In this document: positions 1-50,089 of the stretch, piece after piece
How the letters are laid out: each line of letters begins with the position of its first letter
Position numbering within the stretch: the first letter of the stretch is position 1
DNA from: a virus
Lineage: Duplodnaviria; Caudoviricetes
DNA length: 50,089 bases
Strand: one strand, 5' to 3'
IMG/VR virus record: IMGVR_UViG_3300029183_000007
Span: 1 to 50,089 of that record
Translations under genes and position numbers: made by a program
The notes under the pieces: generated by a model
What the model saw: only the letters and a program-made list of their open reading frames with translations
Told to the model about the DNA's origin: nothing
Database searches by the model: none

Positions 1-17
1 GTTTCCCAGTCACGATC
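1..17 (+). other. Library primer GTTTCCCAGTCACGATC (random-amplification/SISPA-type tag); artefact
   Basis: M13-derived tag; its exact reverse complement is at 50073-50089, outside the genomic terminal repeat. Confidence 0.9.
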
Positions 18-8639: not shown

Positions 8640-9833
8640 TTGCAATTCTTTTATGCCAGTTTGGGACAGCCCTGTCCGATCTGCTCGCGTGAGGATGAGT
8701 GTCGTTGGCAAAGTGAGGAACCGTACATTGTGTACTGCCATACACTACGCAACGGGGAGGTGGCCGAGGGGTACAAATTCCTTCGCATTTGGGGCAAATC
8801 TGGCGTACATGGGGTTTACAGACCTCATGCTCCGAATGAAACCGAGAACGTGCGTCCTGATCCATCCTCACGCCCGCAAACGCTACGTGACTTGTTGTCT
8901 GGAATAGAAGATGATGAGATTGAGCGGAGAGAGGCTAAGGCCAAAGCTGAAATAAAGCGTGCAAAACGCCTAAAGGCTCTAAGCCCTACAAACGATGTAG
9001 CTGGGTTCGATCTGTTTGAAGTGGGTAGGGAAAGGGACACAGATGAAGAAAAGTTGGTTCGCGCTCTTGACATTACCGAGCAAGACACGCATACTTTCCG
9101 AATCCGCTGTTCCAGGCAGTGTCCCGTAGGATCCAACCGGAACCAACTGTGCATTGTCCTGCCCGTCCATCGGTTGCACGAGGGGAAGACATTCTACCAG
9201 CTGCAATTCACCGACCGGACGAAGAAGAACGTGGGAGGCGATGGCCTCTTTGTGCCGCACATGCTGTTTGACGACGCTGGCAAAACACTCAATCTGGTTA
9301 GCCGCTTGGGTGTCTTCATCCCCGAAGGGTTCAGCGACACGAAAACGATTGTGAGGCATGGAGGGTTCGCCGTTGGAAGGCCATCAAACGTCGGTGGTCT
9401 TGAATCACTCGTAAAATTGGATCACATGCTGGCGGACATGGGGAGCAATCACCCGTTCTACCTGGTGGCCGACAACGACATTAGTGGGCCACTGAATCCC
9501 GGTTGGATGGGAGCCTACCAAACCGCTCTGGCACTGATTCATCGTATACAAAGGGCTGTTTTCGTACTGCACATCCCCGTCCAATACGAGGATGTCGATA
9601 GCTGGCGAAAGCAGGCAATGGACAACGCGTCAATCTCCTTTGGGATATGTCCACTGATGGCCATAGCCAAACGGGACTTTACATCTGTACATCACATGCA
9701 CTTCGCAAACCAAACCATTAACCGTGAGATCAGCAAGGGATTTGTCGTCCGTGCTACCATGCGTGGATGGTTCAAGGGCTTTTGCAAAGCTGCTGGATTG
9801 CTAGACGAAAGTTTAGTAGTGTACAAAGGTTAG
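8640..9833 (+). CDS. DnaG-type primase-like protein (Zn-binding domain plus Toprim)
   Basis: CPIC...C...CH at the N-terminus; Toprim motifs IPEGFSD, GRPS, LVADND, EDVDSW. Confidence 0.8.
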   Translation: MQFFYASLGQPCPICSREDECRWQSEEPYIVYCHTLRNGEVAEGYKFLRIWGKSGVHGVYRPHAPNETENVRPDPSSRPQTLRDLLSGIEDDEIERREAKAKAEIKRAKRLKALSPTNDVAGFDLFEVGRERDTDEEKLVRALDITEQDTHTFRIRCSRQCPVGSNRNQLCIVLPVHRLHEGKTFYQLQFTDRTKKNVGGDGLFVPHMLFDDAGKTLNLVSRLGVFIPEGFSDTKTIVRHGGFAVGRPSNVGGLESLVKLDHMLADMGSNHPFYLVADNDISGPLNPGWMGAYQTALALIHRIQRAVFVLHIPVQYEDVDSWRKQAMDNASISFGICPLMAIAKRDFTSVHHMHFANQTINREISKGFVVRATMRGWFKGFCKAAGLLDESLVVYKG

Positions 9834-9940
9834 CGTATTGATTATGTCACCGACCTGTAAAATCGGCGTTTGTAGCTGGTTTTTGAAGGGTTGAGACTGC
9901 AAGGACGTGGAGCTGAAGACAAAAAAATAGAGCCGTTAAG

Positions 9941-11233
9941 GTGCGACAACACCCGGCTCTAAATTTGTTTCGTTGGCACGAAAGCATGAAAGAAATGTTA
10001 CAGCCAAACCCAACCAAGTCAAGTTCAACTCTCGAAAATCTTTCCAATTATTCTCGCGGGACGTTCCTGTCATCCGACGAGTGGAACCACATCCGGTCGA
10101 TTGAGAAGGCCAGCTACTGCGGTCGCGTGGCCACCATGTTCCGCGAAGCCAAGGGCTCGCCACTGGCCGAAGCTGAGGCGCTCGAGGATTCGATGGTGGT
10201 CGGATACCTACGTTGCCGCGGTTGGCACTGTCCGCGTTGCCGTGAAATCAACAAGCGATACGCTAAGCATGATTTCGCGGTTGTGAGCGACAAGCTGCAA
10301 ACGCGGGACGAGCAACCAGTTACGCAGTTCTACTATGGCGTGGTCGATACCGGGTACGCCCACCAATGTGCCAACTCCATTGGCCGAAAAGGTGGCTCAT
10401 TTGCACGCGTGAGGATGACTCAGGGCTACGATGAGAGTGGCCTGAACCTCGCTGAACACCAGGTCTTTTTCCTCTCTGACAAGCCCATTCCACGCTGTGA
10501 TGGCACGCCCATCAGCCGCAAAGAAGCGGTCGAAAAGTACCACGGTGCCGTGGATCAGATCCAGTCTGGAGCCGAGGGGGAGGCACTCATAACTTTTTCC
10601 AAGAATTGGCAAAAAAACTTCCTCATCGAGCGCGAGAAAGAAGAGCGAGGACACGATTGCTTCGACGACGTGGAGCAAAACTACGAAGTATTCCATCTGA
10701 AGGGGCGTACACCATACGACATTGCTGAGATGGTCAACGTGTTGGGTGGTATCGATGGTATCGATGTGTCTGGTGAGCGAAAAAGCCGTCATCGCGGGGA
10801 CTATTACCACGTAGATGATAGTGAACAGATTGAGAGCCCCATTCTGAAATTCAAGGTGCGGGAACACCTCCGCGAGCGAACGAGCAAGGAGGACGTCCGC
10901 CAAATGCGGATGAACATCATGGGACACATCGACAACCTGCTGAACACGTGTGACCCCAGCATACTGCCCGAAGACGGTAAACTACACCTGCACAAACCCG
11001 CAGAACTGGACTTCACAGACACAATGTTCCGCCCCGTCGCTTACCGTACTGTTGAATATATTCAGCTCAAGGAGGATGAGGAGCAACAAGAGTACCTCGA
11101 CCACATGAAAAAGGTGCGTGAAGAGGTCATTGAACAGGGCATGAAACCCAAATCAGCCAAGCGGAAGGCATTCCAGGAGCGACTCAACAACGTCTTGAGG
11201 CAATTTCTTGACCCCAAACCCGCTCTTATCTAG
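9941..11233 (+). CDS. Zn-finger protein, possible replication initiator
   Basis: YCG...RCRGWHCPRC; lies directly after the primase; start uncertain. Confidence 0.5.
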   Translation: MRQHPALNLFRWHESMKEMLQPNPTKSSSTLENLSNYSRGTFLSSDEWNHIRSIEKASYCGRVATMFREAKGSPLAEAEALEDSMVVGYLRCRGWHCPRCREINKRYAKHDFAVVSDKLQTRDEQPVTQFYYGVVDTGYAHQCANSIGRKGGSFARVRMTQGYDESGLNLAEHQVFFLSDKPIPRCDGTPISRKEAVEKYHGAVDQIQSGAEGEALITFSKNWQKNFLIEREKEERGHDCFDDVEQNYEVFHLKGRTPYDIAEMVNVLGGIDGIDVSGERKSRHRGDYYHVDDSEQIESPILKFKVREHLRERTSKEDVRQMRMNIMGHIDNLLNTCDPSILPEDGKLHLHKPAELDFTDTMFRPVAYRTVEYIQLKEDEEQQEYLDHMKKVREEVIEQGMKPKSAKRKAFQERLNNVLRQFLDPKPALI

Positions 11234-11385
11234 CCATCCACGGACAAAAATGAGACACTAGCGCTCGAGGTACGCGCACTGATCGAGCATTGATAGCACA
11301 TGTACACCGAATCGCAACGAATCACACGTTGTTTCGACCTGGCGGTCTCACAACGTAAACCACTAGTTTCCTGGAGGAATCACAA

Positions 11386-11808
11386 ATGTACACTGCCACA
11401 ATGATTGCGTTCTGGATCGTCATGGCCATTGGCATCTTCAACTTCTTCTTTTCGATGATCTGGATTTACAATCTGTTCATCGTTCGCAACCACGCGTTCT
11501 ACAAGATGGCTACTGCAGAAGAGATTGACCAGATGGTGAGTCCAATCGAGTCTGGCGTGGAATCGATTCGAGCTGACCTGTCCGACGACTTGCGAGAGGC
11601 ACGTGCGACGGTTCAAAACCTGGTGGACGAACGCGCCGTCCTCAGGAGCGAGCTGAGGCAATCCCAGGATGAAGTCCAGCGGTTGCAGAAGATCATGTAC
11701 ACACCCAAGGGACTCGAAGGGTGGCGGTCGGGGGCGTTCGGGAGTGAGGCGAAGAACTTGGCCATACCGGACAGTCCGGACAGTCCGGACAAAGGGATAA
11801 AAAGCTAA
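11386..11808 (+). CDS. Membrane protein with coiled coil
   Basis: N-terminal TM helix, heptad pattern, GGAGG RBS. Confidence 0.75.
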   Translation: MYTATMIAFWIVMAIGIFNFFFSMIWIYNLFIVRNHAFYKMATAEEIDQMVSPIESGVESIRADLSDDLREARATVQNLVDERAVLRSELRQSQDEVQRLQKIMYTPKGLEGWRSGAFGSEAKNLAIPDSPDSPDKGIKS

Positions 11809-11816
11809 AAAGATAC

Positions 11817-11845
11817 TTGCACACCCAACCCAGGTGATGTAGAGT
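11817..11845 (+). promoter_or_regulatory. Sigma70-like promoter
   Basis: TTGCAC-17 nt-TAGAGT just upstream of an AAGGAGGT RBS. Confidence 0.5.
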
Positions 11846-11864
11846 AAATCGAAAGGAGGTGACC

Positions 11865-12971
11865 ATGAGTGACCGCGGACAGCAGGAAATCGACCGATTA
11901 CAAAAGCAGGTTTACAAACGAGTCATGGCCAATCGCAAGTACGATCCTGACCAAGAGCGTCGGCTGAGCTTCCTGAGAGAGACGCATCAAAACTACGTGT
12001 CTGACATGGGAGAGCAGGCTAAAGCTCCGTTTTGGGGTTTCTACCAGAATGCTCCCATCCCCTACCTGTTCGACTCTAAGGAAGATCGAGCCGAAGCCTA
12101 TGGGTCGTGGAGATTGTCTTACCTCAAGTGCATGGAACGGTTTGAAAGTGGCGTTTCCCCGCACTCGGTGGGTACGGGATCGAATCATTTCGGCCTGGGG
12201 TTTGACACCCAATGTCGAATTATGAGCTGTTTACTGCTAGCCCTGATGCGAGAGCTGGACTTCGTAGAGGATGAAGTGGCCAATATGATCAGTCGCAAGA
12301 TGGGTTTTCTGGATGCCGACCGCATCATGCAGGGAAGGCCGATAGCGGACTATTCTATGATCCACGTCCATCGGGCGAACGTGATGGAGAAGAAAGTTTA
12401 CACCCCTGATCAAGTTTACCCGACTTCGCGTGCGTCGGCTGTTGTCATTCCTGGGATCATCAAGTACGGCCAAGATTCCATCGTCTGTTACGTCCCCGTT
12501 GAGTCAGAATTGACCAAGAAAGAGGACGCTAGGCTTGCGAACCTCTTGACGGACATGACGATATTTGTGTGCCACGCTGGCTCGCGTATGACGTTCGATG
12601 TCATGCTTACCAGTCTAGCCAGCTTCACCTATGTCAACGTCCACGAATGCACTTACGCTGAGGAGATTATCCGCGCGACTGGTGGCAAGAGTCTGTTCAG
12701 CTACGTCTTGGACAGGATCATCGACAACAATGGGTTTTGGTCATACATGGGTGGTTCGGAGTTCCGCAAGCCGGTTTGCAACGAACGAACGATACCCTTA
12801 GCCAAGGCGATTTGGGACGGTGAGGACGACTGGTTCGCTCTGCACGATGCACTGGCCGAGGAGTCGGACAACGCTGTTCTCATGGCTTTAGCCGCTGGCC
12901 ACGTCAAGAGTCCACGAACAAGCTGGCTGATACGGGAACTGATCTTGGGAGATAGTGATGGGCAAGGTTAG
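11865..12971 (+). CDS. Hypothetical protein with a C-terminal Gemmataceae-type helical domain
   Basis: C-terminus LAKAIWDGEDDWFALHDALAEE...HVKSPRTSWLIRELILG, paralogous to the next gene. Confidence 0.75.
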   Translation: MSDRGQQEIDRLQKQVYKRVMANRKYDPDQERRLSFLRETHQNYVSDMGEQAKAPFWGFYQNAPIPYLFDSKEDRAEAYGSWRLSYLKCMERFESGVSPHSVGTGSNHFGLGFDTQCRIMSCLLLALMRELDFVEDEVANMISRKMGFLDADRIMQGRPIADYSMIHVHRANVMEKKVYTPDQVYPTSRASAVVIPGIIKYGQDSIVCYVPVESELTKKEDARLANLLTDMTIFVCHAGSRMTFDVMLTSLASFTYVNVHECTYAEEIIRATGGKSLFSYVLDRIIDNNGFWSYMGGSEFRKPVCNERTIPLAKAIWDGEDDWFALHDALAEESDNAVLMALAAGHVKSPRTSWLIRELILGDSDGQG

Positions 12972-14031
12972 CGTTGAAGAAATGCTGGGCAAGTTGGACT
13001 ATCTCAACCAGAAGAACCTGGAGAGAAAGTACGGCACGGACGCAGAAAAAGAGCAGGGGCTTTGTGAGTCGCTGTCCATGCTGGCCAATTTGGACGAGTG
13101 GATGAGCGAACGTTTCGAGACTGACCCCATACCCCATCTGACCAAGTGGATGCCTCATCCCTACTGGAGTCCGGCGAAGAAGAGCTACGTAGGCTACACC
13201 GAGTGGGCAGAGATGATCAGCATTTATCTGAATGGTCGTTGGGGAAATGGTCTTAGAAATCTTAGAAACATGGCAGATGATGGCTACTGTGGGACACTTC
13301 CACGGATGTTCCAGCTTACCGTGCCACAAGTTCAATTCGTGCTGGGTGAAACGCTCTGGCGCAACATGGACAAGTATGTGTGGTTCTCAGACTCTTGCGT
13401 CAGTCGCATCAGGCGATGGAATAAGAAGCGTGGCGTTACCCCTGACCGGACAGTCCCGCAATCGTTCAAGGTGAAATTCAAGTATCGAAATGACAGTATC
13501 GAGCAATTGCCCCATCTGGAGATGGACGAACACATTCTGGAATTCTCCCCGTGGACAATGCACGTTCCGGAGAGTTACGAACTAACCAAGCCGGGCTATA
13601 GTGCTTTAGCCACTTCCGGACTGATTAACATTTGGGCGGATGAGCGAAGGCCAACGACGATGGCCGAGGCTTGGGGCTATCTGTTCAATCGACGCATTCC
13701 GGAGGGTTCTTGGTCAAAGCTAGACGACGAATACCAAGAAACGCTCTGGACGGACTACAGTCAGAACCTTTGGCGCTATTTTGTGTCTGGTCTGTTGTGT
13801 GCGTCCAAGCATTGCCACCTTGGGGAAAACCAGTTTGACGAGAGTCTGCGAACGACGAACACAAAACACATCGCACGAGCCATCCTGAACGGACACAACG
13901 ACTGGTTCGCCTTGCATGATGCGCTGGCTGAAGAAACCGACGATGTACGCTACCTGAGCCACTGCCGGTCGGGTATGTTTCACTATCCCCAATCCTGCTG
14001 GCTGCTGTCAGCACTGACTATGGAGGACTGA
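12955..14031 (+). CDS. Hypothetical protein with a C-terminal Gemmataceae-type helical domain
   Basis: C-terminus IARAILNGHNDWFALHDALAEE...LSHCRSGMFHYPQSCWLLSAL. Confidence 0.75.
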   Translation: MMGKVSVEEMLGKLDYLNQKNLERKYGTDAEKEQGLCESLSMLANLDEWMSERFETDPIPHLTKWMPHPYWSPAKKSYVGYTEWAEMISIYLNGRWGNGLRNLRNMADDGYCGTLPRMFQLTVPQVQFVLGETLWRNMDKYVWFSDSCVSRIRRWNKKRGVTPDRTVPQSFKVKFKYRNDSIEQLPHLEMDEHILEFSPWTMHVPESYELTKPGYSALATSGLINIWADERRPTTMAEAWGYLFNRRIPEGSWSKLDDEYQETLWTDYSQNLWRYFVSGLLCASKHCHLGENQFDESLRTTNTKHIARAILNGHNDWFALHDALAEETDDVRYLSHCRSGMFHYPQSCWLLSALTMED

Positions 14032-14568
14032 ATGTCTGGAATCCGAGTGAAGCGGAAGATTGAGAACCCCGAAACGTTTCCTATCACTGATGCTGAGATG
14101 GAAGGGGACGACGTCCTTATCCCGATGGGCTGTTTGGCCATGCCTGGGAACATCATGTTCGAGCGGCCAGCTTGGACAACGAAGTGCTTCGGGATGCTCG
14201 AATTCGCACCGATCGAGGTGGAACGGATTTGGGGCGGATTGGGTGAGACGCCCGTTAAAACCGTCCAGGAAGAAGAGGATACGCCGGTCTTGATCGTCTC
14301 TGGCCTATCGCCCTACTTCGATCTCATTTCGATGTTCGAGGGCATGAGCGGGAAAATCAAGATTCCTTCCTACATTTTCCGGCCAAACAGGATGGAGGAA
14401 GAGTTAGCCTACGACCCGGACAGCTTCGACGACATCATTGTCTATCGCCAGGACGAAATGACCGACCAAGAACGAGAGCATTTTTCGTACCTTTCAACCA
14501 AGCAAAGTAAACACCTAGACAGGAGCAAGCCGAATGAGCGCCGTTTTAAGTCAAGAAGAAACCGTTGA
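14032..14568 (+). CDS. Hypothetical protein
   Basis: 178-aa ORF, GGAGG RBS, abuts the upstream stop. Confidence 0.75.
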   Translation: MSGIRVKRKIENPETFPITDAEMEGDDVLIPMGCLAMPGNIMFERPAWTTKCFGMLEFAPIEVERIWGGLGETPVKTVQEEEDTPVLIVSGLSPYFDLISMFEGMSGKIKIPSYIFRPNRMEEELAYDPDSFDDIIVYRQDEMTDQEREHFSYLSTKQSKHLDRSKPNERRFKSRRNR

Positions 14569-14842
14569 GCTGATCAGGCACATTGGCGAAAAACAAGAAC
14601 CAGTGTGGATTCAGCACGGACGTAAGGAATATCGGGTTATGTCCGCCGTGCCAGCTGGTGCAAAATTGCTGTGCAATTGCTGCGGGCGTTTATCTGACCA
14701 CACAAATGACGTACAATTTGTAGTGGTGGACGAACGCGACTTGCCACAAGACGACTGGCCGGACGATCTTGACGAGATGGCCATGAATGGGGACTGTGAG
14801 GTTTCTGAATTCGATTTGGGAGAGCTAGATGACATTGATTAA
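14534..14842 (+). CDS. Hypothetical acidic protein with CNCC motif
   Basis: 102-aa ORF, AGGAG RBS. Confidence 0.65.
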   Translation: MSAVLSQEETVELIRHIGEKQEPVWIQHGRKEYRVMSAVPAGAKLLCNCCGRLSDHTNDVQFVVVDERDLPQDDWPDDLDEMAMNGDCEVSEFDLGELDDID

Positions 14843-16271
14843 ACAGATGCAGACGTGGACAGAGCAACTGGACGGACTTGACCCCATAGTGAGGCTTATC
14901 TTGACCGTGACACCTTGGGTACTGTTCATTCTGATTGCCATTGGGGACATCCTGGGGCGAAGAAAGCTCAAGGCTCAGATTGACCATCAGCGGTCTTTAA
15001 GCGACGATCTGCGAAATGCGATGAGCCTCATGGGAGAGGAGAAACGCCAGGCAGTGGCTGCACTCAAGGAGCGGGATAAGGAAGTGAAGAACCTGGAGTC
15101 CGCTAGCGTGCAGGCAGGGGATGTTATCGCCGAACTCAAGGTGGAACGTGAGGTTTTGGCCAAAGAAAAGAGGGAGCTATCAGAGCAATTAGGCCATAGC
15201 CGTCGGCACGTGGATGACCGAGCCAGAATGGTTGACCGGCTGACATGCGACATCAGGGATTTGAAGAAAGACCTAGAACGTGAGCAGCGAAAGCAAGAGC
15301 AACTGGATTCACAACGGCCAGTAGGCGAACGTTCGGACGCTGGCGAAACTATCACAGAGCTGCAACGCCAGGTCAAATCGCTGGAAGATCAGTTGGCCGG
15401 AGCCAAGCATAACATCAAGACGCTTATGTCGGAGTTGGGCAACGTGGCCGAGCGAGCGAACAAGCTGGAGTCGGAAAAGAACACGTTCTCCAACAGTAGC
15501 AAGCATTGGCATGATCAGTTCCACACAGCAGACTCCGCGCGTCGCAACCTGGCCGAGGACAAGCGTATGCTGGAGAACAAGCTGAACGCATCTGAGAAAG
15601 GATACGACGAGCTGTGCGGCAAGTACAATTCAGCCATGCACGAGCTGACGCAGTTCAAAGAACAAGGTCAGGGCTGTCACAATTGCCCAAGGCTTGCAGG
15701 GGAGTCCAACAAATACTACGACCGACTCAAGAAAGCCGAAGCCCGCATCGAAGAGCTGGAGCAAGACATCAAGGCACACGAAGCCGATGGGGAGCGAGTG
15801 GGATGGCAAGCCGACAGAATTAGAGAGTACGAGAAGGTAGTAGAAGACCTTCGCCAGCAATGCGATAGTCTGCGGGCGTCTTGGTCTGAGGTCAAGAACG
15901 AAGCCTACAGGCGAGGAGAGAAAATTGAGGAGCTGGAGGAGGAACTTTCCAAAGAACGTGAGGAAAGGGCTAAAGCTGACCAGCTGTGGAGTCCGAAGAA
16001 AACCAATAGTGAGGAGATAACCTACTCCGGTGACTTCGCACTGCCAATCATGGACGAAATTCACCAGCGGAGCATCAAGGCGAAAGATGCGATTGACCGA
16101 CTAGCCAAAGCACAGGCCGAACGCGACGACCTCAAAAAACAAGTGGCCACCCTCAGCCAAGCTGTCAAAGACTGGAAGAGCAAATACGACAAAGTCAGCA
16201 CCAACTGGCAAACTGTGGTTGACGCGATGGACAATAATGGTTTTGACGTGACCCCCCGATGCGACTCCTGA
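14829..16271 (+). CDS. Membrane-anchored long coiled-coil protein
   Basis: N-terminal TM helix, then more than 400 aa of heptad-rich sequence with an internal CHNC. Confidence 0.8.
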   Translation: MTLIKQMQTWTEQLDGLDPIVRLILTVTPWVLFILIAIGDILGRRKLKAQIDHQRSLSDDLRNAMSLMGEEKRQAVAALKERDKEVKNLESASVQAGDVIAELKVEREVLAKEKRELSEQLGHSRRHVDDRARMVDRLTCDIRDLKKDLEREQRKQEQLDSQRPVGERSDAGETITELQRQVKSLEDQLAGAKHNIKTLMSELGNVAERANKLESEKNTFSNSSKHWHDQFHTADSARRNLAEDKRMLENKLNASEKGYDELCGKYNSAMHELTQFKEQGQGCHNCPRLAGESNKYYDRLKKAEARIEELEQDIKAHEADGERVGWQADRIREYEKVVEDLRQQCDSLRASWSEVKNEAYRRGEKIEELEEELSKEREERAKADQLWSPKKTNSEEITYSGDFALPIMDEIHQRSIKAKDAIDRLAKAQAERDDLKKQVATLSQAVKDWKSKYDKVSTNWQTVVDAMDNNGFDVTPRCDS

Positions 16272-16349
16272 GCCTGGAGTATAACTAGGCTCTAGACTCC
16301 TGTTTGAGTGGCTAGCCGGTTTGTGGTGGACTGGCTGCCTGTTGGCTAG

Positions 16350-16384
16350 CTCCGGTGGGCCTGTTTCCTCCCTCCGGAGTTTTT
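16350..16384 (+). terminator. Intrinsic terminator-like hairpin
   Basis: ctccgg...ccggag followed by TTTTT. Confidence 0.55.
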
Positions 16385-16505
16385 ATCCCTAGCGTGTATT
16401 GTGGCGTTACGCCATGAAGCGAATTTTGCCTGGCAAGAACAACTGCCAGCGAACACCCCGCGAGCAGGCTCGCTAATCGCTGATAGTAAGGAGCAGTAGG
16501 GATAA
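16383..16505 (+). promoter_or_regulatory. Structured leader closed by a 9-bp helix that reaches the start codon
   Basis: TTATCCCTA (16383-16391) is the perfect complement of TAGGGATAA (16497-16505); three internal hairpins. Confidence 0.5.
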
Positions 16506-16717
16506 TGCCGTATACGCACTCATCTGACAACAATGTTTACATCCCGAACATACAGGCAACCGAGGGAATAACTGTCAGCTTTATGAGACATTGGAGCTGG
16601 CATCAGTTCGCTAGGCTCTACGCTGGCCGCGGGCTGTCCTGGAAGAAGTTGTCGGAAGAGTACAAAGAGTATAGGGAGAACTTGGCCAAAGCAACCACTG
16701 TGAGTATTGATGACTAG
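16505..16717 (+). CDS. Small hypothetical protein
   Basis: 70-aa ORF with a purine-rich RBS. Confidence 0.65.
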   Translation: MPYTHSSDNNVYIPNIQATEGITVSFMRHWSWHQFARLYAGRGLSWKKLSEEYKEYRENLAKATTVSIDD

Positions 16718-16795
16718 ACTGGCCTGTTACGCCGCAGGTTGGTTAGGGAGTAGGTTGTTACTGGCCACCTACTCCCGCTTTCGCATGAGGGGAAT

Positions 16796-17146
16796 ATGTC
16801 ACACATCGACGAGAACAAGGCCAGTCCGCTACTGGACAGGCTCGGAACCATCGCGCTAGAATGGGATCAGATACGACGCTACCCGGATAACGCAGCCACC
16901 ATTCTAGCGATGATTCATTTTGTCCCTTTGGACATCCAAATCACCCAGGCCACCAAGGACAACCCGCAGCAAGTCTTGTACACTGGCTACAGCCCGGAAT
17001 TCGAGTTTCGCAAAGTAGATCGGGAAAAGGTTGTCACCTTCAACACCAAGACCGTCCCGTACTATATCCTCAACGTCTTCATGTCCGAGATTGGAACCGT
17101 AGACAAAGTCATCGTAGAAAGAGACAAGAGCCGAAATGCCTTTTGA
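16796..17146 (+). CDS. Hypothetical protein
   Basis: 116-aa ORF, GAGGGGG RBS. Confidence 0.75.
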   Translation: MSHIDENKASPLLDRLGTIALEWDQIRRYPDNAATILAMIHFVPLDIQITQATKDNPQQVLYTGYSPEFEFRKVDREKVVTFNTKTVPYYILNVFMSEIGTVDKVIVERDKSRNAF

Positions 17147-17393
17147 AAAACCCCAAGAATTTGACATCAACGAGCTGGACGACACCCCGATTATGTTCGG
17201 CCACCTCGCGGGAAAAACCTTTGGCCAGTGTTCTATGCGGGAGTTGGAACGCATGGCCGATGAGTTGCAGGGACTGAACCCGGACTTTAGGATGAAGCTG
17301 GAAGCGTATCTGTCAGACCGAGCCAATCAGAAAGAGTTAGAAAATGAACTTGAACGGGAAAGCGACGACACAGCTTGGTTCGCCGACGATTAA
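17136..17393 (+). CDS. Small protein resembling the DUF3820/QSregVF_b (FGKxxGK) domain
   Basis: PIMFGHLAGKTFGQC...L pattern. Confidence 0.5.
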   Translation: MPFEKPQEFDINELDDTPIMFGHLAGKTFGQCSMRELERMADELQGLNPDFRMKLEAYLSDRANQKELENELERESDDTAWFADD

Positions 17394-17397
17394 ACCG

Positions 17398-17751
17398 ATG
17401 GTAATCGGTGCGATGTGGATGGAAGAGGCCAAGATACAAATCATGTATTCGACGGGCGAGATTAAAGTCCTAGAAATTCCGTCAATTTTGTGGAACGATT
17501 TGGGCGAATACTACAATCAGATGGATGGCCTGGGGATTGACAAGGGGACGGCGGACACAATCCTAGCGTTTCAAAAACTGTTCGAGCAAGAGTCCAACCA
17601 ATACGCCGAAGCCTCGGACAAGTTCTCCGGGCAGTTAGACCAAATTGTCACGACCAAAAAGGTCGAACCGGAATCACTTAGCCCGCTGTCCATCGTGGGA
17701 TGGTCGATAGCGGCATTACTTTTCCTTATCTTACTGGCAGGAGTCCGATGA
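17398..17751 (+). CDS. Hypothetical protein with C-terminal TM helix
   Basis: Hydrophobic C-terminus; ATGA-coupled to the next gene; start uncertain (17344 possible). Confidence 0.65.
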   Translation: MVIGAMWMEEAKIQIMYSTGEIKVLEIPSILWNDLGEYYNQMDGLGIDKGTADTILAFQKLFEQESNQYAEASDKFSGQLDQIVTTKKVEPESLSPLSIVGWSIAALLFLILLAGVR

Positions 17752-17999
17752 AAATTACAGTCAGACACGAGAAAGACGAAATCCTGAACAAGACGGGATG
17801 CGATATTAAACTGAACGTCTACACCAATAGCTACGCACGCAAGACGGTCGAGCTGGGACAGACGTTCGAGACCGACTGCCAGGGCTTGCAGCTCCGGTTT
17901 GAGGTCGACGACGTTCATTGCGACATGAATTTCACCAGTGCCGAAGCAGAAGTCCTGCTGGACAAGATCGAAGAAGTTGTCCGACCCAATGTAGATTAA
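17748..17999 (+). CDS. Hypothetical protein
   Basis: AGGAG RBS, ATGA overlap. Confidence 0.7.
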   Translation: MKITVRHEKDEILNKTGCDIKLNVYTNSYARKTVELGQTFETDCQGLQLRFEVDDVHCDMNFTSAEAEVLLDKIEEVVRPNVD

Positions 18000-18000
18000 C

Positions 18001-18040
18001 CTGTCCGACCGTGGACAGTTCAACATAGATTTTCTATACT
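18001..18040 (+). promoter_or_regulatory. Promoter with an overlapping palindromic operator
   Basis: CTGTCC-N6-GGACAG (18001-18018) overlaps -35 TGGACA (18012-18017); 17-nt spacer; TATACT (18035-18040). Confidence 0.65.
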
Positions 18041-18058
18041 TTCACTTTGGAGGAGCGT

Positions 18059-18691
18059 ATGATAACGCACCGAACACTACCTTACCTTGTGCTGCTGGCG
18101 ATTGTCGCATTGTTTGTGACGTGCGGAAAAGCACAAGCCCAAGCAACGCAACTGGACGCACAAGACGCGGTCGACACGGCGAAGCTGAACTACGACGACC
18201 AAGAAGACCGGATCACGGACGACTTTCTCATTCTGGCAGACAAGCAAGACCGGCTTGACGATCTACGGGACATCATGGACTTGTTTATTTCCAAGAAGCA
18301 GGCTGATCAGCTTGTTGGACTGATCACACAGAAAGAGCTGGACAAGTGGACGAAATACTACAACGAATATGTCGAGCGGTTCGACGAAATCCAAGACTGG
18401 TTGGACAAAGCGGAAGCCCACTTGGGTGACGCCATCGACGAACAAGCCGCGAACCAGTTCTGGCTTGGCCACGCACAAAACGACCTGGGACTAGGAATCG
18501 TTCACGAAGGGATGGGCAACTTGCAAACGGCTGAGGACTACTACGGTTCGGCCATTCTCAGCTCCGGGTTTTGCAACGATGGTGTGGACATAACGATTGC
18601 CCACTGTGTTGACGCCATGTCGGACATGTTCATTGCGGAGCCGAAGCTCAATGACGTGGACTTGGACATGAAGCAAGAAGGATACAAGTGA
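18059..18691 (+). CDS. Exported acidic helical protein; stand-alone (moron-like) unit
   Basis: Signal peptide ending AQA; GGAGGA RBS; own promoter and terminator. Confidence 0.8.
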   Translation: MITHRTLPYLVLLAIVALFVTCGKAQAQATQLDAQDAVDTAKLNYDDQEDRITDDFLILADKQDRLDDLRDIMDLFISKKQADQLVGLITQKELDKWTKYYNEYVERFDEIQDWLDKAEAHLGDAIDEQAANQFWLGHAQNDLGLGIVHEGMGNLQTAEDYYGSAILSSGFCNDGVDITIAHCVDAMSDMFIAEPKLNDVDLDMKQEGYK

Positions 18692-18726
18692 GAGACCTAC
18701 TTGGTGTAGGGAAGTGATAAGGCTGG

Positions 18727-18763
18727 AGCCACAAGGGGCGCAGAGACTCTTGTGGCTTTTTTT
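18727..18763 (+). terminator. Intrinsic terminator
   Basis: agccacaag/cttgtggct stem plus T-tract. Confidence 0.8.
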
Positions 18764-18777
18764 ATTGGGAGGGGACT

Positions 18778-19530
18778 ATGGATTACAAGACATTCGAGAA
18801 AGCGATACGCGAGAATCCCAACGACCTGATGGCCAGGCAGGCTTATGGGGACTGGCTTGAAGAGCAGGACGGCGGAAAAGACGCTCTGTTTGCTGCGTAC
18901 ATCAAAGGCAACCATCGGCCACGTCGGGTAAAGAATCCGAAAACTATCCAGTTGCGGGGCGGACGGATTCCAATATCCAGGTACGCGGCGGCCAAAGAAA
19001 TGACCATCTACCACGGTTTTGTAGACGAAATCTGGATACCTGGCGGACGATGGGAGGCAGGATTCGGCTACTGGCAACGTCATGGCGCGGTGAGAACCGT
19101 TCACCTAACCACTAACCCCTCGGTAAGGCTTAACGCCACGTTTGATGGCACGCTGAAAATCGTGTATGGTAGACATTCGCTAAGCCTAACGGTGGCCGAC
19201 TTCCAGGAGGCTTTTGAGATGACGGACACGCACTCCGTGTTCGCAACCAAGGCTCTCTCGCGGATGTGGCCACAGATCACGTGGGATTTACCAGTCGACG
19301 ACAATATCCAAGAGTTGTTCTTTGAAGCGGTGCTGGCTCTGGCCAAGGAGTGGGAAAAGGCCAAGCGCGAGATGACTCAGGAAGAGTACGCGAGAGCCTT
19401 GGACGTCAAACGCCGGTCAATGCACCCCGCATCGTGGAACTTCCTTTCGACTCCGGAAATTGAGGCCATTCTATGCAAGACCCAGACGTCATCCGAGACC
19501 AACCCGGATACAACGCTGACAGCGCCATGA
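18778..19530 (+). CDS. TIGR02996 (repeat-companion) domain protein
   Basis: N-terminal FEKAIRENPNDLMARQAYGDWLEEQ...AAYI, later HGFVDEI. Confidence 0.85.
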   Translation: MDYKTFEKAIRENPNDLMARQAYGDWLEEQDGGKDALFAAYIKGNHRPRRVKNPKTIQLRGGRIPISRYAAAKEMTIYHGFVDEIWIPGGRWEAGFGYWQRHGAVRTVHLTTNPSVRLNATFDGTLKIVYGRHSLSLTVADFQEAFEMTDTHSVFATKALSRMWPQITWDLPVDDNIQELFFEAVLALAKEWEKAKREMTQEEYARALDVKRRSMHPASWNFLSTPEIEAILCKTQTSSETNPDTTLTAP

Positions 19531-19892
19531 GCGTTTACATGGATCAGATTCGCACAAACACAGGCATTCACGATTCGCCGGCGAACGGTGTTCCACCGAC
19601 TGGCGAGTCTCTCCAAGGTTTCCTGGAACCCGAAACCAGACCCCAAACCTTCGCAGCGGTGCAGCACGCGAACAACGTTCCCCCACCAGCCATGCACCCC
19701 AGCGAAACGGTTCGCGTCCAAATGATCGATGGCAAACTCACGCTGATCGGCCCCATCGATGGGGATTACGACCCGCAGCGAGTCCGCCAGGCACTTCTCA
19801 ACCACATCGCACAACACCCACAATCGGAACACGTCAGCCAAATTCTCGACATTGCGTATCGTCTCGGTCAAAAATCTCTTCCTTTTGTCTAG
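19527..19892 (+). CDS. Hypothetical protein
   Basis: ATGA-coupled to the TIGR02996 gene. Confidence 0.65.
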   Translation: MSVYMDQIRTNTGIHDSPANGVPPTGESLQGFLEPETRPQTFAAVQHANNVPPPAMHPSETVRVQMIDGKLTLIGPIDGDYDPQRVRQALLNHIAQHPQSEHVSQILDIAYRLGQKSLPFV

Positions 19893-19948
19893 TAATCAGC
19901 CGTTCACTGCCCTACAATGTCGAAAACTCAATCCAGTGAACGGCAACT

Positions 19949-20257
19949 ATGACACCAGAACAATTAGAAGATTCACGCTACAGGAAGTGGGTGTATCGAG
20001 AAGACAATCAGGGAATGGTGATACGGATACTTGAGTACCGTGGTGACGGCACGCTCCAAGACGCGTTCCATCCGGTGGCGTTCCACCGTGGGATGACGGA
20101 CGAGGACTTCCAAGCCGCTCGAAGGAATTACAAACTCGCAGTACAACTCCAGAACGAATATGAGTCACCCAAGAGACCCAGCAAGCGAAACGGAACCACT
20201 GTTTCCGAAACGGCTACCGACGCGAAAGACAATCAAGCGGATCAAGCTAACGCCTGA
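19949..20257 (+). CDS. Hypothetical protein
   Basis: 102-aa ORF upstream of the terminase genes. Confidence 0.6.
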   Translation: MTPEQLEDSRYRKWVYREDNQGMVIRILEYRGDGTLQDAFHPVAFHRGMTDEDFQAARRNYKLAVQLQNEYESPKRPSKRNGTTVSETATDAKDNQADQANA

Positions 20258-20771
20258 CATTGTCGCGGACGCTCGGATTCTGTTTCAGTCGTGCGCGTTT
20301 CCAGAAACGGCCATCGCCACGCTGGGAATTCCGCTCCCGGTCTGGAAAAAGTGGATGAAGCGGGCGCAAGAGGAGCTCCAACGGCTTGATGAAGTAGAGA
20401 CGTATTTCTCGCTCTATGGCAGATACCGTTCGCGAGCTGTCCACAATCAGCCCGATGTGCGGAAAGGCGAAGCGATCTACGTGGAGCTGTACCACGCGGC
20501 CACTGGTGGAGCGGCTAACTGTTGCAACACACTGGTGTCGTACATTGAAACGGCGGCTAAGGAAGATTGGCGGGCGGCGGCTTGGTTGGTGGAACGACGG
20601 TTCGAGGAATGGAACCCGGACATGAAACGGCTTAGGAAGCTGGAAAAACAGTTCGAGGAACTGGTAGAACAACAGCAGGCTAAAGCCGATGCAGAATTTA
20701 ATCGATCGAGTGGAAAGGCAAATCGACCAAATCGAACGATCGGGTTTGGTCAAGAAAAAACCGCTGGTTGA
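20160..20771 (+). CDS. terS: Terminase small subunit
   Basis: N-terminal HTH-like region, DWRAAAWLVERR motif, position before terL. Confidence 0.75.
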   Translation: MSHPRDPASETEPLFPKRLPTRKTIKRIKLTPDIVADARILFQSCAFPETAIATLGIPLPVWKKWMKRAQEELQRLDEVETYFSLYGRYRSRAVHNQPDVRKGEAIYVELYHAATGGAANCCNTLVSYIETAAKEDWRAAAWLVERRFEEWNPDMKRLRKLEKQFEELVEQQQAKADAEFNRSSGKANRPNRTIGFGQEKTAG

Positions 20772-22269
20772 GTACCAAGGCGATCCCGTCGGCTATATCG
20801 AGGACGTACTTGGTCATCGCCTTTGGCACAGACAACACGAAGTCTGCCAGGCACTTTACACCCCACCCTACAAAGCACTCGTTACGAGCTGTCACAAGAC
20901 CGGAAAAACCTTTCTGGCGGCGGCTCTCACTTCGTACTATCACGACTGTTACCCCAACTCGCTCGTCATCACCACTGGCCCATCTTCGGTGGCGGTCAAG
21001 GATCAACTCTGGCGTGAAGTTCGCGTCCAAAGGCGGGATGCTGGACTCGGCGGATTCACTGGCGAGAAGGCAACCGAGCTGTGGGTAGACCACGACTGGT
21101 GGGCCAAGGGATTCACCACGAAAGACGGTGAATCCATGCACGGACGTCACCAACGGCACATGTTCTTTGTTATCGACGAAGGGTGTGGCGTTCCCCCTTG
21201 GGTGTATTCCGTCTTCAAGTCGATGTTCCAACATACCGGACTGCATCACTGGCTCACCATTGGCAATCCGCTAGACACCACGTCGCAGATGTACCAAGAG
21301 GAATTCTTGCGCGACACGCAAGGCGAACTCTCTTGGAACATCATTCGCATGTCCGCCCTAGACCATCCGAACATCGACGCTGGGATGAGTGGCCGGGAAT
21401 TGCCGTTCCCCGCTGCGGTCGATCACAAGATGTTTGAGGCTTGGATTACCGACTACGGTTGCGATGAAATCCCGGTCGATGAAGTGACCGACATGGACTT
21501 CCAGTGGCCACCGAATTCGGGCAAGTGGTGGCGGCCATCGCCGGAATTCCAAGGCCGGGCGCTTGGCCAGTGGCCATCAGCAGGCACATTTGGCGTGTGG
21601 TCGGACTTGCTCTGGCGGCGGACACTCAAGCGTCAACCGATCCCGCAACCCGACGGTGAGTGGCTCCCGGAAGTCGGTTGCGACGTCGCTTCGCGCGGAT
21701 TCAATTGGACGGTCTTTCATGGCCGGATGGGGAATTGCTCGGTTTACCACGACCGCAAGAACGGTTGGAGCGGGCCACAAATCATAGGCAAGCTCAAGAA
21801 TTTGTGCCAAGAGTTGGCCGAACGGTACAACGCCAAACTACCCAAAAACGTGACCGGGATACGTCCAGAAGACATCCCATGCAAGGTGGACGAGAACGGC
21901 ATTGGGGAGAAAATCACTGAGTTTGCCGACGACTATAACTTTATCGGCGTTCGGTCAAGTTGGACTCACTGTTGCAATGTGGTACGCTATCCTAATGTGA
22001 GGTCAGAACTTTGGTTTGATACGGCAGAACAAGCCAGGGCTAATCAAGTCGACTTTTCCAGGATTCCAGCTCGCTACTTGTCAATGGTTCAACAGCAGGC
22101 TTTCGCACCGCAGTGGAAGTTTGACGGGAAAGGCAGGAAGCAAGTTGAGAAGAAGGAAGAAACTAGCAAACGGCTACATGGGCTGTCCCCTGACGACATG
22201 GACGCAGTGAATCTGTGTTACAGACGCGTAGGGACAAGCGATGTGGCTGAATTCGTCGAATCTGAGTAG
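20689..22269 (+). CDS. terL: Terminase large subunit
   Basis: Q motif (HRQHEV), Walker A SCHKTGKT, Walker B FVIDEG, IGNP; nuclease motifs GCDVA, VDENGIG, SPDDMDA. Confidence 0.93.
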   Translation: MQNLIDRVERQIDQIERSGLVKKKPLVEYQGDPVGYIEDVLGHRLWHRQHEVCQALYTPPYKALVTSCHKTGKTFLAAALTSYYHDCYPNSLVITTGPSSVAVKDQLWREVRVQRRDAGLGGFTGEKATELWVDHDWWAKGFTTKDGESMHGRHQRHMFFVIDEGCGVPPWVYSVFKSMFQHTGLHHWLTIGNPLDTTSQMYQEEFLRDTQGELSWNIIRMSALDHPNIDAGMSGRELPFPAAVDHKMFEAWITDYGCDEIPVDEVTDMDFQWPPNSGKWWRPSPEFQGRALGQWPSAGTFGVWSDLLWRRTLKRQPIPQPDGEWLPEVGCDVASRGFNWTVFHGRMGNCSVYHDRKNGWSGPQIIGKLKNLCQELAERYNAKLPKNVTGIRPEDIPCKVDENGIGEKITEFADDYNFIGVRSSWTHCCNVVRYPNVRSELWFDTAEQARANQVDFSRIPARYLSMVQQQAFAPQWKFDGKGRKQVEKKEETSKRLHGLSPDDMDAVNLCYRRVGTSDVAEFVESE

Positions 22270-22272
22270 CCA

Positions 22273-25200
22273 ATGGTAACGCAGCAATACTTCCAAAGTG
22301 GGCCACAACATCCTCCTGGCCTCATCCCGATTGCGAACTCGAACAACGTCAACGTGTACGAAGTTCCAGCGATTTTGGGGCCAGATGGCAAGCCGATCAT
22401 CAGACCGTATGACGGGTTTGCCGCTCCTCACGTCCTTGGATTCAACGCCATTCTCTCGTCTGGCCATTACGCCTACTATCATGGCCGATGGGACGAAGCC
22501 CGTCGAGACAGTATTGAAAACTCGTTGGCGATGGCGAACGATGCCCACCTGCAAGGCATCATGCAAGAGCGGAAATTGGCTGTTGCGTCCCTGCCGTGGC
22601 ATATCGACGTCCCGAACGAACGTGACCCGTACCAACGACACGTCCGCGACACACTCACCAAAATACTACGCCAGATACACCAGTTTCCCGCGATCCGCTG
22701 GGCATTACTCTCATCGATTTGGTACGGTCGCGCGGCGGTGCAGTTCCGCTACAAGTGGTCATACATCGACGGTCAAAGATGTCTCACGGTTCGCGATTGG
22801 CTCCCGATCAATGGGGACAAACTCGGCTTTACGCATGACCACCAACCCTACACGCTGATGCACTCGGCGGAAATTGATCGTTTAACTGGAGCCACGTACA
22901 TCACAACGACTGCTGGTGGACGTGGCCTAATGTGGATTGGAGATTGGCGTGATCGAATTACCATCAGCCAGCACTACGAACGCGATGACGTGGATTTTTG
23001 GAACCCCGAACAAGCCGGAGCGGTTCATGGTGTCGGAGTCCGATCTAAAATCTATTGGGTGGACTGGCTCCGAAACAATTGGCTCACAAAGGTTACAGAG
23101 TTTCTCGAACGCGCCGGAATGGGTTTGGAACTTTGGTACTACGCCAGCGGAGACACCAAGGCCAAGCAGAGAGTAACTGAAGCGGCGACCAAGAATCGGA
23201 CGCACAAAACACGCGTCATCGTTCCGTGGTTGGAGAGCCAGGGAGACCGTCCGTCAGTAGAAGTTGTGGACGTGCCGATGAACGGTGCGCAGATGCTTGT
23301 CCAACTCATGGAGTACATCGACCGAATCGAAGAGCGATATATCGTCGGCCAGCATATGTCGGCCTCGGCTCAAGCGACTGGTCTAGGCGATGACGGCCAA
23401 GCCGACTTCCAGCGAGACACCAAACAGCAAATTAGAAACGCCGACGCACACCAGCAAGACTCAGCTATCACGGGGACGGAGGAAGAACCGTCACTGCTTT
23501 ACATCCTTCAGAAATACACGTTTCCGGAGTCAGTCCCATCCGAGCAGAACCCAAAGGGATTTCATGCGACGTTCCACCACGATCTAGAAAAACTCGAAAG
23601 TCTCGAACGGTTGGAAGCGGCTCAAATCGTGGTTGGCATGGGCGCTCCGGTCAAACGCGACGATCTGTACGCGGCGTCCGGACTCACCCAGCCCGACGAC
23701 GGGGACGATGTGATTGGTTTTGAGATGGGAGCGGAGTACGCGCAACAGATGGCTCAAGGAGATCCAGGCCAGCAGCAACAGCCAGGCGAAGAAATGGGAC
23801 TTCCGCAAGTGGAAGATGAGGAAGAGTACGAAGAAGGCCAACAGCCGCAAGAGGGGGATTTCTCAGAAGACGACCTCTTGCAGATGTTCGAGCCAGACGA
23901 ATTGGAAGCATTGGGCATCGGTGGCCAGCAGCAACAAGCCGTCCCGTATCGCCAACCCGACCGGATGATTACCTACGATTCTGGCCGTTGGGTGACAATC
24001 GGTGCGAAAGAATCGGACGGGGAAAGCAAGGGCGGTTCGCGCGTGTTCATCAAGGACGGGGTAATCACCAAGGGACATCCCGACCTCACTGGCAAATCCA
24101 TCAACAACATGAAAGGCCAAGCGAAGGGCGAGGCTCCAGGTGTGGCCACCAGGCGAGACAAAGACCACGCGGTGGCCGTCATCCGTAAAGAGGCCAAACG
24201 CAAAGGGATCAATCCGAAAGAACTTGACCAACTGGCCAGCGAACTGATGGCACACGATGACGCTTATGGCAAAGACCGCAATCTCATGCTCAGTTCCGCT
24301 CGAACCATGTCGAAGGGCATGGGCTACGGCGATCTATCGACCATTGCTGCTAGGCACTCACGCGGGCAGATCGATCAAAGCCACGTGACCGGACTCGACG
24401 ACGTGGCGGCTCGGATGCAAGAAAGCTATCCGCACATGTTCCAAACCGAGGACGAACACACTCGCGAGCTGTTTGATATGCTCTTGGCCGGAAACTCTCA
24501 ACGGGCTGACCGGGCGAAAGTCTACGAACAAGCCCTAGAAATCATGGCCTCTGGTGGCGGTAGTCAAATCGAAGATGACGGTGACCCGTTCGGCGAAGTT
24601 CCGTTTTCTGGTGTTGGCCGGATGATCACTTACGAAGGAACGGCGCTCGGGACGGGTAGTAAAAAGACTGGCCTCATGCCATCGACTAGCCAGTCCTCAG
24701 CAAGCGACTTTCCACAGACAATGGAAGAATTCGCACAGCACAAACCCGGCGACAAGTGGCATCCAGTACAGACGAAACGCGGGACTTCAGCTTGGCAGAA
24801 TCCGTACTCCGGTCATGTCCACTATGGCTTGAATGCTCCGCAAGCTGACGCGCACGAACACGCCAGGAAGATGATCGAGAAGCGAAACGCTCCTCCGAAA
24901 TTCGAGCCAACCTACAGCTCTGAACGGTCAGAAGAAAAAACCGGATTCACTAACCAGTTCTTCCCAAAAGGCTCGCACGTGACCAGCTACGCCGAGCTTG
25001 TGGGCGCTCCGAAGGGTATGCAGGGTTATACGGTTCATGGGCGGCGAGTCCCGCATGAAATGCACATCGCGGCGGACGAAGACACACACCACCAGTTCCA
25101 CACGTTCGAGCGGACAGCTAAGATTCTTCCGTCTGGCGATCTGTCGATCTACTCGAATGAAAACCGCGTGCGGGGCAACCAACGAGGTACGGGAGCGGGA

Positions 25201-50060: not shown

Positions 50061-50071
50061 TGCGACCTCCT
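49955..50071 (+). repeat. Right copy of 117-bp terminal direct repeat
   Basis: Identical to 22-138. Confidence 0.95.
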
Positions 50072-50072
50072 C

Positions 50073-50089
50073 GATCGTGACTGGGAAAC
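50073..50089 (-). other. Library primer, reverse complement; artefact
   Basis: gatcgtgactgggaaac is the reverse complement of 1-17. Confidence 0.9.

What the first reader, a model, noticed from the sequence alone, without database searches (positions are those of the whole stretch)
11865..14031. Tandem genes sharing only a C-terminal DWFALHDALAEE domain resembling an expanded Gemmataceae family
Seen: two adjacent ~360-aa proteins with no obvious N-terminal similarity end in the same ~60-aa module: A.AI..G..DWFALHDALAEE.D...L....G..(H).P...WL...L. They lie downstream of their own promoter. Known, from recall and unverified: Gemmata-group planctomycetes carry many paralogues ending in LA..MY..RDF..MPILADAL..AGC....L.HCR....H.RGCW..D..L, of unknown function. 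Inference: the phage captured a host adaptor/signalling domain and attached it to new N-termini, possibly as decoys or hijackers of an uncharacterised host defence or signalling network.
Basis: partly seen in the sequence, partly recalled or inferred. Interest (0 to 1): 0.8.

Follow-up and report, generated by a model that had tools for sequence, protein, structure and literature searches.

The report
Phage copies of Gemmatales immunity-protein tag
Two neighbouring genes of a 50-kb aquatic phage have unrelated front ends but finish in the same diverged helical module, which Gemmata-like bacteria carry in up to about 100 copies, mostly on proteins with a predicted toxin-immunity fold, so the phage likely uses it as a docking tag to reach or jam a host partner that has not been identified.

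Summary
Observation confirmed. The two ORFs (11865-12971, 12958-14031) share only a ~70-aa C-terminal module (38% identity, E 1e-12). Its 12-residue core differs by 7 synonymous and no amino-acid changes. The recalled family is real: it is in neither Pfam nor NCBIfam, and its motif occurs 0-114 times per Gemmatales genome. The phage modules are true, diverged homologues (profile-profile 97.5%; the top 17 hits in three Gemmataceae genomes are all family members).

New here: the usual host partner domain is predicted to have the fold of the toxin-immunity protein SsdAI (Imm5-like), and the module is also fused to SUKH, ankyrin and Sel1 domains. It has a likely metal site, partly kept in one phage copy and lost in the other. 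The phage also carries a TIGR02996 gene.

Against a special capture: the module is common in other viral records, up to about 13 places in one, and the direction of transfer is unrooted. Docking-tag or decoy function is inferred only; both N-termini remain unexplained. The scan noted related Gemmatales-phage expansions before on other DNA.

The parts
11865..12971 (+). Gene A (P0001, 368 aa): unexplained N-terminal ~290 aa plus C-terminal module
   Evidence: (no family hit)
12744..12953 (+). Module copy A (aa 294-363); keeps the LAKAIWDGEDDWFALHDALAEE helices, lacks the putative metal ligands
   Evidence: E 3.6e-5; E 2.4e-6
12958..14031 (+). Gene B (P0002, 357 aa): unexplained N-terminal ~285 aa plus C-terminal module; overlaps gene A by 14 nt
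13816..14028 (+). Module copy B (aa 287-357); predicted four helices; keeps His, His, Cys of the putative metal site
   Evidence: E 0.0046; E 7.2e-5; E 4.7e-8; pLDDT 89.3
11817..11845 (+). Possible sigma70-type promoter (TTGCAC-N17-TAGAGT); weak, not called by the consensus scan
   Evidence: negative
18778..19530 (+). TIGR02996-domain gene (250 aa): a second Gemmata-type helical domain in the same + strand gene block, not homologous to the module by profile comparison
   Evidence: 31.4 bits, cut-off 29.05

Best explanation
The two genes carry diverged, selection-maintained copies of an unnamed ~65-aa helical module of Gemmatales bacteria and their phages, which likely works as a constant docking tag that ties a variable front end to one shared partner protein in the host cell. 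Shown: the homology; placement in the ALHDAL subfamily; fusion of the module to unrelated domains (SUKH, ankyrin, Sel1, DUF6878) at either end of proteins; and conservation of a C/H-H-H-C pattern. Predicted: four helices, and an SsdAI/Imm5-like fold for the usual host front end. Inferred: (1) the C/H-H-H-C residues bind a metal, probably zinc; (2) host copies are a diversified set of toxin- or invader-binding proteins that hand their catch to a common partner through the tag; (3) the phage, probably of a Gemmatales host, expresses these genes in an accessory operon and uses the tag to bring its own front ends to that partner or to occupy it. The part kept identical between the two phage copies is the ALHDAL helix, while the metal site has decayed, which fits a preserved binding surface.
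For: Profile-profile A1 vs both subfamilies: 97.5%, E 7e-12; 40 column shuffles per pairing, against each subfamily separately, reached at most 2.6%. The window-only profile in three Gemmataceae genomes: the top 17 of 36 matches are all family members; 27 of 36 confirmed, 9 not checkable. A combined HMM ranks the two ORFs first and second of 1434 window segments (E 4.7e-8, 2.4e-6; next 0.33). Starred clade of the window modules with the ALHDAL subfamily, 99/99. 7 synonymous and 0 non-synonymous codon changes in the core. Residues 1-151 of a host-type model align with 7JTU_B (Z 11.3, rmsd 3.7, 138 aligned) and DUF416 (Z 9.5, 9.3). 7JTU is the SsdA-SsdAI complex and SsdAI is all-helical (PMC7901873, passages); that chain B is SsdAI is my inference from its length and fold. 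Weak Pfam Imm5, Imm5_like and DUF6931 hits in 2 of 34 family proteins. The best viral structure hits include a phage Imm5-like protein, E 0.077. Direct SUKH fusions in 3 of 20 SUKH loci. Ankyrin and Sel1 fusions. In the ALHDAL alignment the two ends are conserved (column identity 0.54 and 0.79) and the middle is variable (0.20). Ligand positions: H, H, C in 106 of 106 ALHDAL rows with His at the first position in 100; C-H-H-C in 91 cellular rows, where the first Cys was part of the search motif. TIGR02996 is present in this phage and in 4 of 5 other module-bearing viral records.
Against: No partner protein was identified and nothing is known of the two N-termini. The module is widespread in viral records: 67 proteins, 43 with the host-type front end, and about 13 places in one 193-kb record. 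It may therefore be an ordinary phage accessory module rather than a mimic. Viral and cellular rows intermix and the tree is unrooted. Host copies in 13 inspected regions lie singly or in short arrays among mixed genes, with no recurring enzyme or defence core seen in the ORF starts or the neighbour clustering (no PADLOC scan run). SUKH adjacency without fusion is 3 of 20, only marginal (p 0.05-0.18). Z 11.3 is below the ~13 that the tool gives as a safe bar for helical bundles. The canonical-subfamily HMM alone hits P0002 weakly (E 0.0046) and misses P0001. The library-wide search gave 6 non-self hits, and I judged only P0004 a true relative: 4 others are unrelated repeat proteins and P0008 was not read. 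The ALHDAL subfamily was found through the window profile, so tests using it are partly circular. The host is inferred from two domains only.
Confidence: 0.4

Rival explanations
1. The module is a phage-borne accessory domain that serves the phage's own protein interactions. Host expansions derive from repeated phage input, and the two genes are ordinary paralogues with swapped front ends, not mimics.
For: 70 viral loci match the motif. Viral copies are more varied in sequence, with inserted zinc ribbons and N-terminal placements. About 13 places in one record. Imm5-like folds occur in phages. Host copy number is erratic, 0-114.
Against: Host copies sit outside obvious prophages in the regions inspected. 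The domain is nearly confined to one bacterial order (2 of 200 other phylum genomes) and is absent from 50,697 GenBank phage records at the sensitivity used. The cellular sample was the best hits to one query, so its shallowness is biased. Some 'viral' records may be host DNA (L022 repeats the gene layout of chromosomal L136).
Confidence: 0.28
2. The module is a self-contained structural or fate-determining cap (metal-stabilised folding unit, turnover or localisation signal) rather than a signalling adaptor. The phage keeps it because the host machinery handles tagged proteins in a useful way.
For: The canonical C-terminus ends at a nearly fixed distance from the motif (38 residues in many rows). 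Conserved ligand pattern. Fusion to unrelated domains.
Against: The module is N-terminal in several proteins (L003, L018, L036, L044, L208, L304). Copy A has lost the ligands but kept the ALHDAL helix unchanged.
Confidence: 0.17
3. Both proteins are immunity proteins that protect the infected cell or lysogen against competitors' toxins, like a small polyimmunity cassette. The module marks this class of protein.
For: Host partners have immunity-type folds. Tandem arrays of 2-8 diverged copies resemble the polyimmunity loci described in PMC3482391 (passages). SUKH is expanded in Gemmata obscuriglobus, 21 paralogues (PMC3113570, passages).
Against: The phage N-termini match no immunity family and not the host-type N-domain. 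No integrase was recognised among the ORFs scanned. No cognate toxin gene recurred beside host copies.
Confidence: 0.1
4. The conserved 3' end serves mainly as a DNA recombination anchor for shuffling front ends, and the protein module matters little.
For: Constant ends and variable middles; tandem arrays.
Against: The two phage copies agree in protein but differ at 7 of 12 codons, and share only 75% over 53 nt. This points to selection on the protein, not the DNA.
Confidence: 0.05

Closest known systems
Unnamed Gemmatales paralogue family (some clusters auto-named 'SMI1/KNR4 family protein')
   Same: C-terminal four-helix module; LAxAI and DAL helices; partly kept His-His-Cys; terminal W-x-x-x-x-L helix; nests in the ALHDAL subfamily.
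   Different: Lacks the MTEAEW...RKLRLFA front end; unrelated ~290-aa N-termini; AGC/AGH lost; copy A lacks the ligands.
Imm5 / SsdAI-type and SUKH (SMI1/KNR4) immunity proteins of polymorphic toxin systems (PMC3482391, PMC3113570, PMC7901873; passages read)
   Same: These are the domains on which host copies of the module ride; tandem diverged arrays.
   Different: The window proteins hold neither domain, and no cognate toxin was found beside them or recurring beside host copies.
Effector-associated domains (EADs) of NTP-dependent conflict systems (PMC7159879, PMC8195603; passages read)
   Same: Small helical module on varied partners; sister copies in adjacent genes; planctomycete hosts.
   Different: No Pfam EAD or Death-like match; no MoxR-vWA or GTPase core seen nearby; EAD homotypic binding is itself a prediction in those papers.
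TIGR02996 (rpt_mate_G_obs) repeat-companion domain
   Same: Gemmata-type helical domain that co-occurs in the same phages and is also fused to SUKH.
   Different: No profile similarity to the module (0.7%); usually N-terminal.
F-box / SOCS-box adaptor tags and their viral copies such as poxvirus ankyrin-PRANC proteins (recalled; no call)
   Same: Logic only: a constant short helical tag on variable binding domains, reused by viruses.
   Different: No sequence or structural link was found; no ligase partner is known here.

Membership tests
Gemmatales C-terminal module (domain level) | Significant profile match over the length of the module | tested here: met
   the canonical-only HMM misses P0001
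Gemmatales C-terminal module (domain level) | Four predicted helices in the same order | tested here: met
   P0002 module H14-24, 30-40, 44-52, 62-68 (model driven by the family alignment); family model H166-176, 182-191, 195-203, 211-217. P0001 not modelled.
Gemmatales C-terminal module (domain level) | C/H-H-H-C putative metal ligands | tested here: inconclusive
   P0002 keeps 3 of 4; P0001 none in register; metal binding not tested
Gemmatales C-terminal module (domain level) | Falls inside the family tree | tested here: met
   starred 17-row clade with the ALHDAL subfamily, 99/99; 76 columns, long branches, bootstrap not settled
Canonical full-length Gemmatales family (Imm5-like front end + module) | MTEAEW...RKLRLFA N-terminal domain | tested here: not met
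   N-domain HMM has no hit under E 0.8 in 1434 window segments; the full-length HMM matches only the module part
SUKH / SMI1-KNR4 | Pfam SMI1_KNR4, SUKH_5 or SUKH_6 match | tested here: not met
   no Pfam family at E 0.05 for either protein
TIGR02996 | NCBIfam TIGR02996 match or profile similarity | tested here: not met
   (no family at E 10); hhalign 0.7% with a 6-sequence TIGR02996-like profile
Effector-associated domains (EADs) | Match to a described EAD / Death-like profile | tested here: not met
   31 family members scanned against Pfam, none; window proteins none
Effector-associated domains (EADs) | Death-like or other known adaptor fold | tested here: inconclusive
   best Z 5.1 among 48,161 chains, generic helical bundles
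Effector-associated domains (EADs) | Linked to an NTPase core and enzymatic effectors | tested here: inconclusive
   none recognised among the window ORFs scanned; host neighbourhoods only read by eye and clustered
Effector-associated domains (EADs) | Homotypic binding | not testable with these tools
   needs a binding assay

The most novel reading that the evidence does not exclude
Gemmatales run an undescribed adaptor system in which about 100 variable immunity-fold receptors share one metal-binding helical tag that docks on a common host machine (an F-box/SOCS-box-like logic in bacteria), with TIGR02996 as a second tag. Their phages graft the tag onto their own proteins to hijack or block that machine, and this phage does so twice.
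Probability: 0.2. Interest if true: 0.85.

Novelty: new variant of a known kind. Interest (0 to 1): 0.52.

Why it matters
One of the large unexplained gene expansions of Gemmata-like planctomycetes now has a defined, portable domain, a predicted immunity-type partner fold and phage copies under selection. The isolated 65-aa module is a simple bait: finding its binding partner would reveal what up to 1 gene in 70 or so of these genomes is for (a rough figure that assumes about 7,000 genes), and whether their phages exploit it. The two phage copies point to the surface likely to matter.

Tried and rejected
No close relatives of either whole protein or of the window module were found by:
- word-indexed protein searches: self hits only;
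- Viral-contig scans: none;
- GenBank phages by tblastn: none;
- phmmer of both N-termini against 11,699 fetched sequences: nothing at E 10.

Other negative or uninformative searches:
- ESM Atlas with the P0002 module gave no usable hit.
- The FALHDAL.E pattern in viral contigs gave 16 loci; the 5 in-frame matches were not the module.
- WFALHDAL in metagenome contigs gave 58 loci; 21 were in-frame and 1 (L304) is a true relative.
- PDB sequence searches found nothing significant.
- Foldseek against the PDB found no match at E 0.001.
- Module-only fold searches gave best Z 5.1 and best E 3.5; this is no evidence of a new fold.
- Complex prediction of the host-type module with the P0002 module: no answer, score 0.00 in two runs; no evidence either way.
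- No RNA holder was listed.

Ideas dropped:
- Homology of the module to TIGR02996, which I suspected from the look of the motifs, was rejected.
- A REP-like repeat downstream of host copies: 0 of 48 by my pattern, which was probably too strict.
- The codon count was out of frame and was redone.

Literature:
- 'TIGR02996' is in 0 papers.
- Six further searches (listings seen) showed no description of this family.
- Mahajan et al. 2020 (Mol Biol Evol), a likely place for a mention, is not held. No supplements were read, so the family may be tabulated there or in the supplements of PMC8567305, PMC3482391 or PMC7159879.

Full report
Setting. The window is the whole 50,089-bp contig. It has a 131-nt terminal direct repeat, which suggests a complete circularly permuted genome. 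It encodes a RecT-like protein, a RecD2-like helicase, a C5 methylase, a Mu-type portal and a head-tail adaptor, so it is a tailed phage. It is held by two aquatic-metagenome runs of one study, which may be its source. Their contigs cover 9500-20500 with no listed differences.

Observation. P0001 (11865-12971) and P0002 (12958-14031) overlap by 14 nt and are followed at once by the next ORF, so they sit in a translationally coupled block. They share only their last ~71 residues (38%, E 1e-12). The score is 129 against a shuffle maximum of 64, whereas the N-termini are at chance level. The core DWFALHDALAEE is identical while 7 of 12 codons differ, which indicates selection on the protein. The 'own promoter' is possible but not shown.

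The recalled family is real. A pattern for ADAL[EQ][ED]AGC (from the finding, partly recalled) found 70 viral loci, all but a few of which read as the module. An alignment of 31 of them (A2) matched an estimated 1,700 stretches in the species-genome collection. The best 80 were mostly titled Gemmataceae genera or unplaced planctomycetes, with three Isosphaeraceae, two 'Alcaligenaceae' bins and two unnamed. Three Gemmataceae genomes gave 90, 111 and 57 matches, each from 150 scored candidates, so these are lower bounds. The motif occurs in 56 of 101 Gemmatales genomes, 0-114 times each, with 0 for the reversed control. Of 200 other genomes drawn from the phylum, 2 had one match each (29 candidates at most scored per genome). 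None of the 31 members matched Pfam or NCBIfam significantly. ESM Atlas clusters are planctomycete, and one is auto-named 'SMI1/KNR4 family'.

Homology of the phage modules. A1 (window only) against A2 gave 89.9%, E 1.7e-6. In three Gemmataceae genomes A1 gave 36 matches at E 10 or better. The top 17 are all family members, 27 of 36 are confirmed, and 9 could not be checked. Against 1.84 billion representatives A1 gave 6 non-self hits; P0004 is a true relative, four are unrelated repeat proteins and one was not read. P0004 led to 132 proteins (120 listed) of a subfamily, 115 of 120 with ALHDAL; two are named as Planctomycetaceae or Gemmataceae. A strict motif for this subfamily occurs in 2 of 267 Gemmatales genomes. 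Its HMM hits both window ORFs (E 3.6e-5, 7.2e-5). A combined HMM gives 4.7e-8 and 2.4e-6, with the next of 1434 segments at 0.33. The canonical-only HMM hits P0002 at 0.0046 and misses P0001. Profile-profile with both subfamilies gives 97.5%; shuffled controls against each subfamily reached at most 2.6%. In a 53-row subsample tree (76 columns, long branches, bootstrap unsettled) the two modules are sisters (99/92) inside a starred ALHDAL clade (99/99). Viral and cellular rows intermix and there is no root (FastTree on 116 rows agrees).

What the module rides on. Of 176 distinct module proteins in the loci, 99 of 109 cellular and 43 of 67 viral ones have a conserved front end (MTEAEW...RKLRLFA). 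The window proteins do not. Some misses are truncated, and the cellular set was the best hits to one query. A model of a host-type protein (pLDDT 82.6) aligns over residues 1-151 with 7JTU_B (Z 11.3, rmsd 3.7, 138 residues) and two DUF416 proteins (Z 9.5, 9.3); the next row is at 6.0. This is under the tool's cautionary bar for helical bundles. It is supported by weak Pfam Imm5, Imm5_like and DUF6931 hits in 2 of 34 proteins and by a phage Imm5-like structure hit at E 0.077. 7JTU is the complex of the deaminase toxin SsdA with its all-helical immunity protein SsdAI (PMC7901873, passages). Of 35 SUKH matches in the three genomes, 20 were laid as loci: 3 are direct fusions with the module and 3 more have a family gene next door. 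All 6 together give p 1e-4 to 3e-3; adjacency alone is marginal. These fusions probably explain the automatic name. Other fusions are ankyrin and Sel1 and DUF6878. The module is N-terminal in L003, L018, L036, L044, L208 and L304. Host copies occur singly or in arrays of up to 8 among mixed genes.

The module itself. The P0002 copy, folded with an 80-row alignment, gives four helices at pLDDT 89.3, with no clear structural relative. Four positions are conserved: C-H-H-C in 91 cellular rows (first Cys fixed by the search motif) and H-H-H-C in the ALHDAL subfamily (100, 106, 106, 106 of 106). The Cys/His swap suggests metal binding (inference). Copy B keeps three of the four and copy A none in register, yet both keep the ALHDAL helix.

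Other phages. The module is common in viral records. One 193-kb provirus record has about 13 places. TIGR02996 passes its cut-off in 4 of 5 such records and lies directly downstream of a module gene in two of them; two more adjacent copies in a third record are below the cut-off. This phage also has a TIGR02996 gene at 18778-19530. The two domains are not detectably homologous, but both fuse to SUKH. Together they point to a Gemmatales-like host, which was not tested directly. Some IMG/VR records may be host DNA.

Mechanism. Best reading (0.4): a constant docking tag on variable immunity-type binders, reused by the phage on its own front ends. This resembles the EAD principle (PMC7159879 and PMC8195603, passages) and polyimmunity arrays (PMC3482391 and PMC3113570, passages), without meeting EAD membership. 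Rivals are a phage-borne accessory module (0.28), a structural or turnover cap (0.17), phage-encoded immunity (0.10) and a recombination anchor (0.05). The homology itself I put at about 0.95. No partner, activity or direction of transfer is shown.

Novelty. Seven literature searches found no description of the family. PMC8567305 (passages) reports massive paralogue gain in Gemmataceae without naming this family in the passages seen, and the key 2020 paper was not available. Earlier notes of this scan report Gemmatales phages with expanded TIGR02996 and a second host family, so the theme has been seen on other DNA. What is added here is the ALHDAL link, the immunity-fold partners, the putative metal site and the case of wholly foreign front ends. 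Verdict: a real, well-supported homology to an unnamed domain, with an inferred mechanism; new variant of a known kind, interest 0.52.

Noticed in passing
window 18778-19530 (+): TIGR02996-domain gene above the curated cut-off, with a short non-LRR-annotated body, in the same gene block just before the probable terminase.
   Followed up: partly
window 22273-28089 (+): Mu-type portal domain (aa 87-470) fused to about 1,400 further residues (1,938 aa in all). No internal protein repeat at E 1e-3, although short DNA repeats about 1,300 nt apart occur inside it.
   Followed up: partly
window 20689-22269 (+): Probable terminase large subunit (Walker-A-like HKTGKT seen; only phrog_5902 of unknown function matched).
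   Followed up: no
window 1-17 and 50073-50089; 8-138 / 49941-50071: A 17-nt primer-like sequence caps both ends (probably from random amplification, recalled), outside a terminal direct repeat.
   Followed up: no
window 14829-16271 (+): 480-aa protein with an N-terminal hydrophobic segment and a long coiled coil, two genes after the 178-aa ORF that follows the pair.
   Followed up: no
L195:1150-2919, L200:1165-1995, L201:1231-2190; L202, L207: SUKH domains fused to the module (L195, L200, L201); TIGR02996-like heads in SUKH loci (L202 fused). These probably explain the automatic 'SMI1/KNR4' name of the whole family.
   Followed up: partly
G468 (L046, L212, L215-L242): 193-kb provirus record with about 13 module places; many viral copies have CxxC zinc-ribbon inserts inside the module.
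   Followed up: partly
L104:359-6521: Array of 7-8 family genes in 6.6 kb of a planctomycete MAG contig.
   Followed up: no
L187:5264-12248: Three tandem family genes lie near a VgrG gene and an Hcp-like gene on the opposite strand in G002.
   Followed up: partly
L214:1772-2440: Phage gene with a TIGR02996 head on an Ala/Trp-rich, possibly Imm5-like body, directly after a module gene.
   Followed up: no
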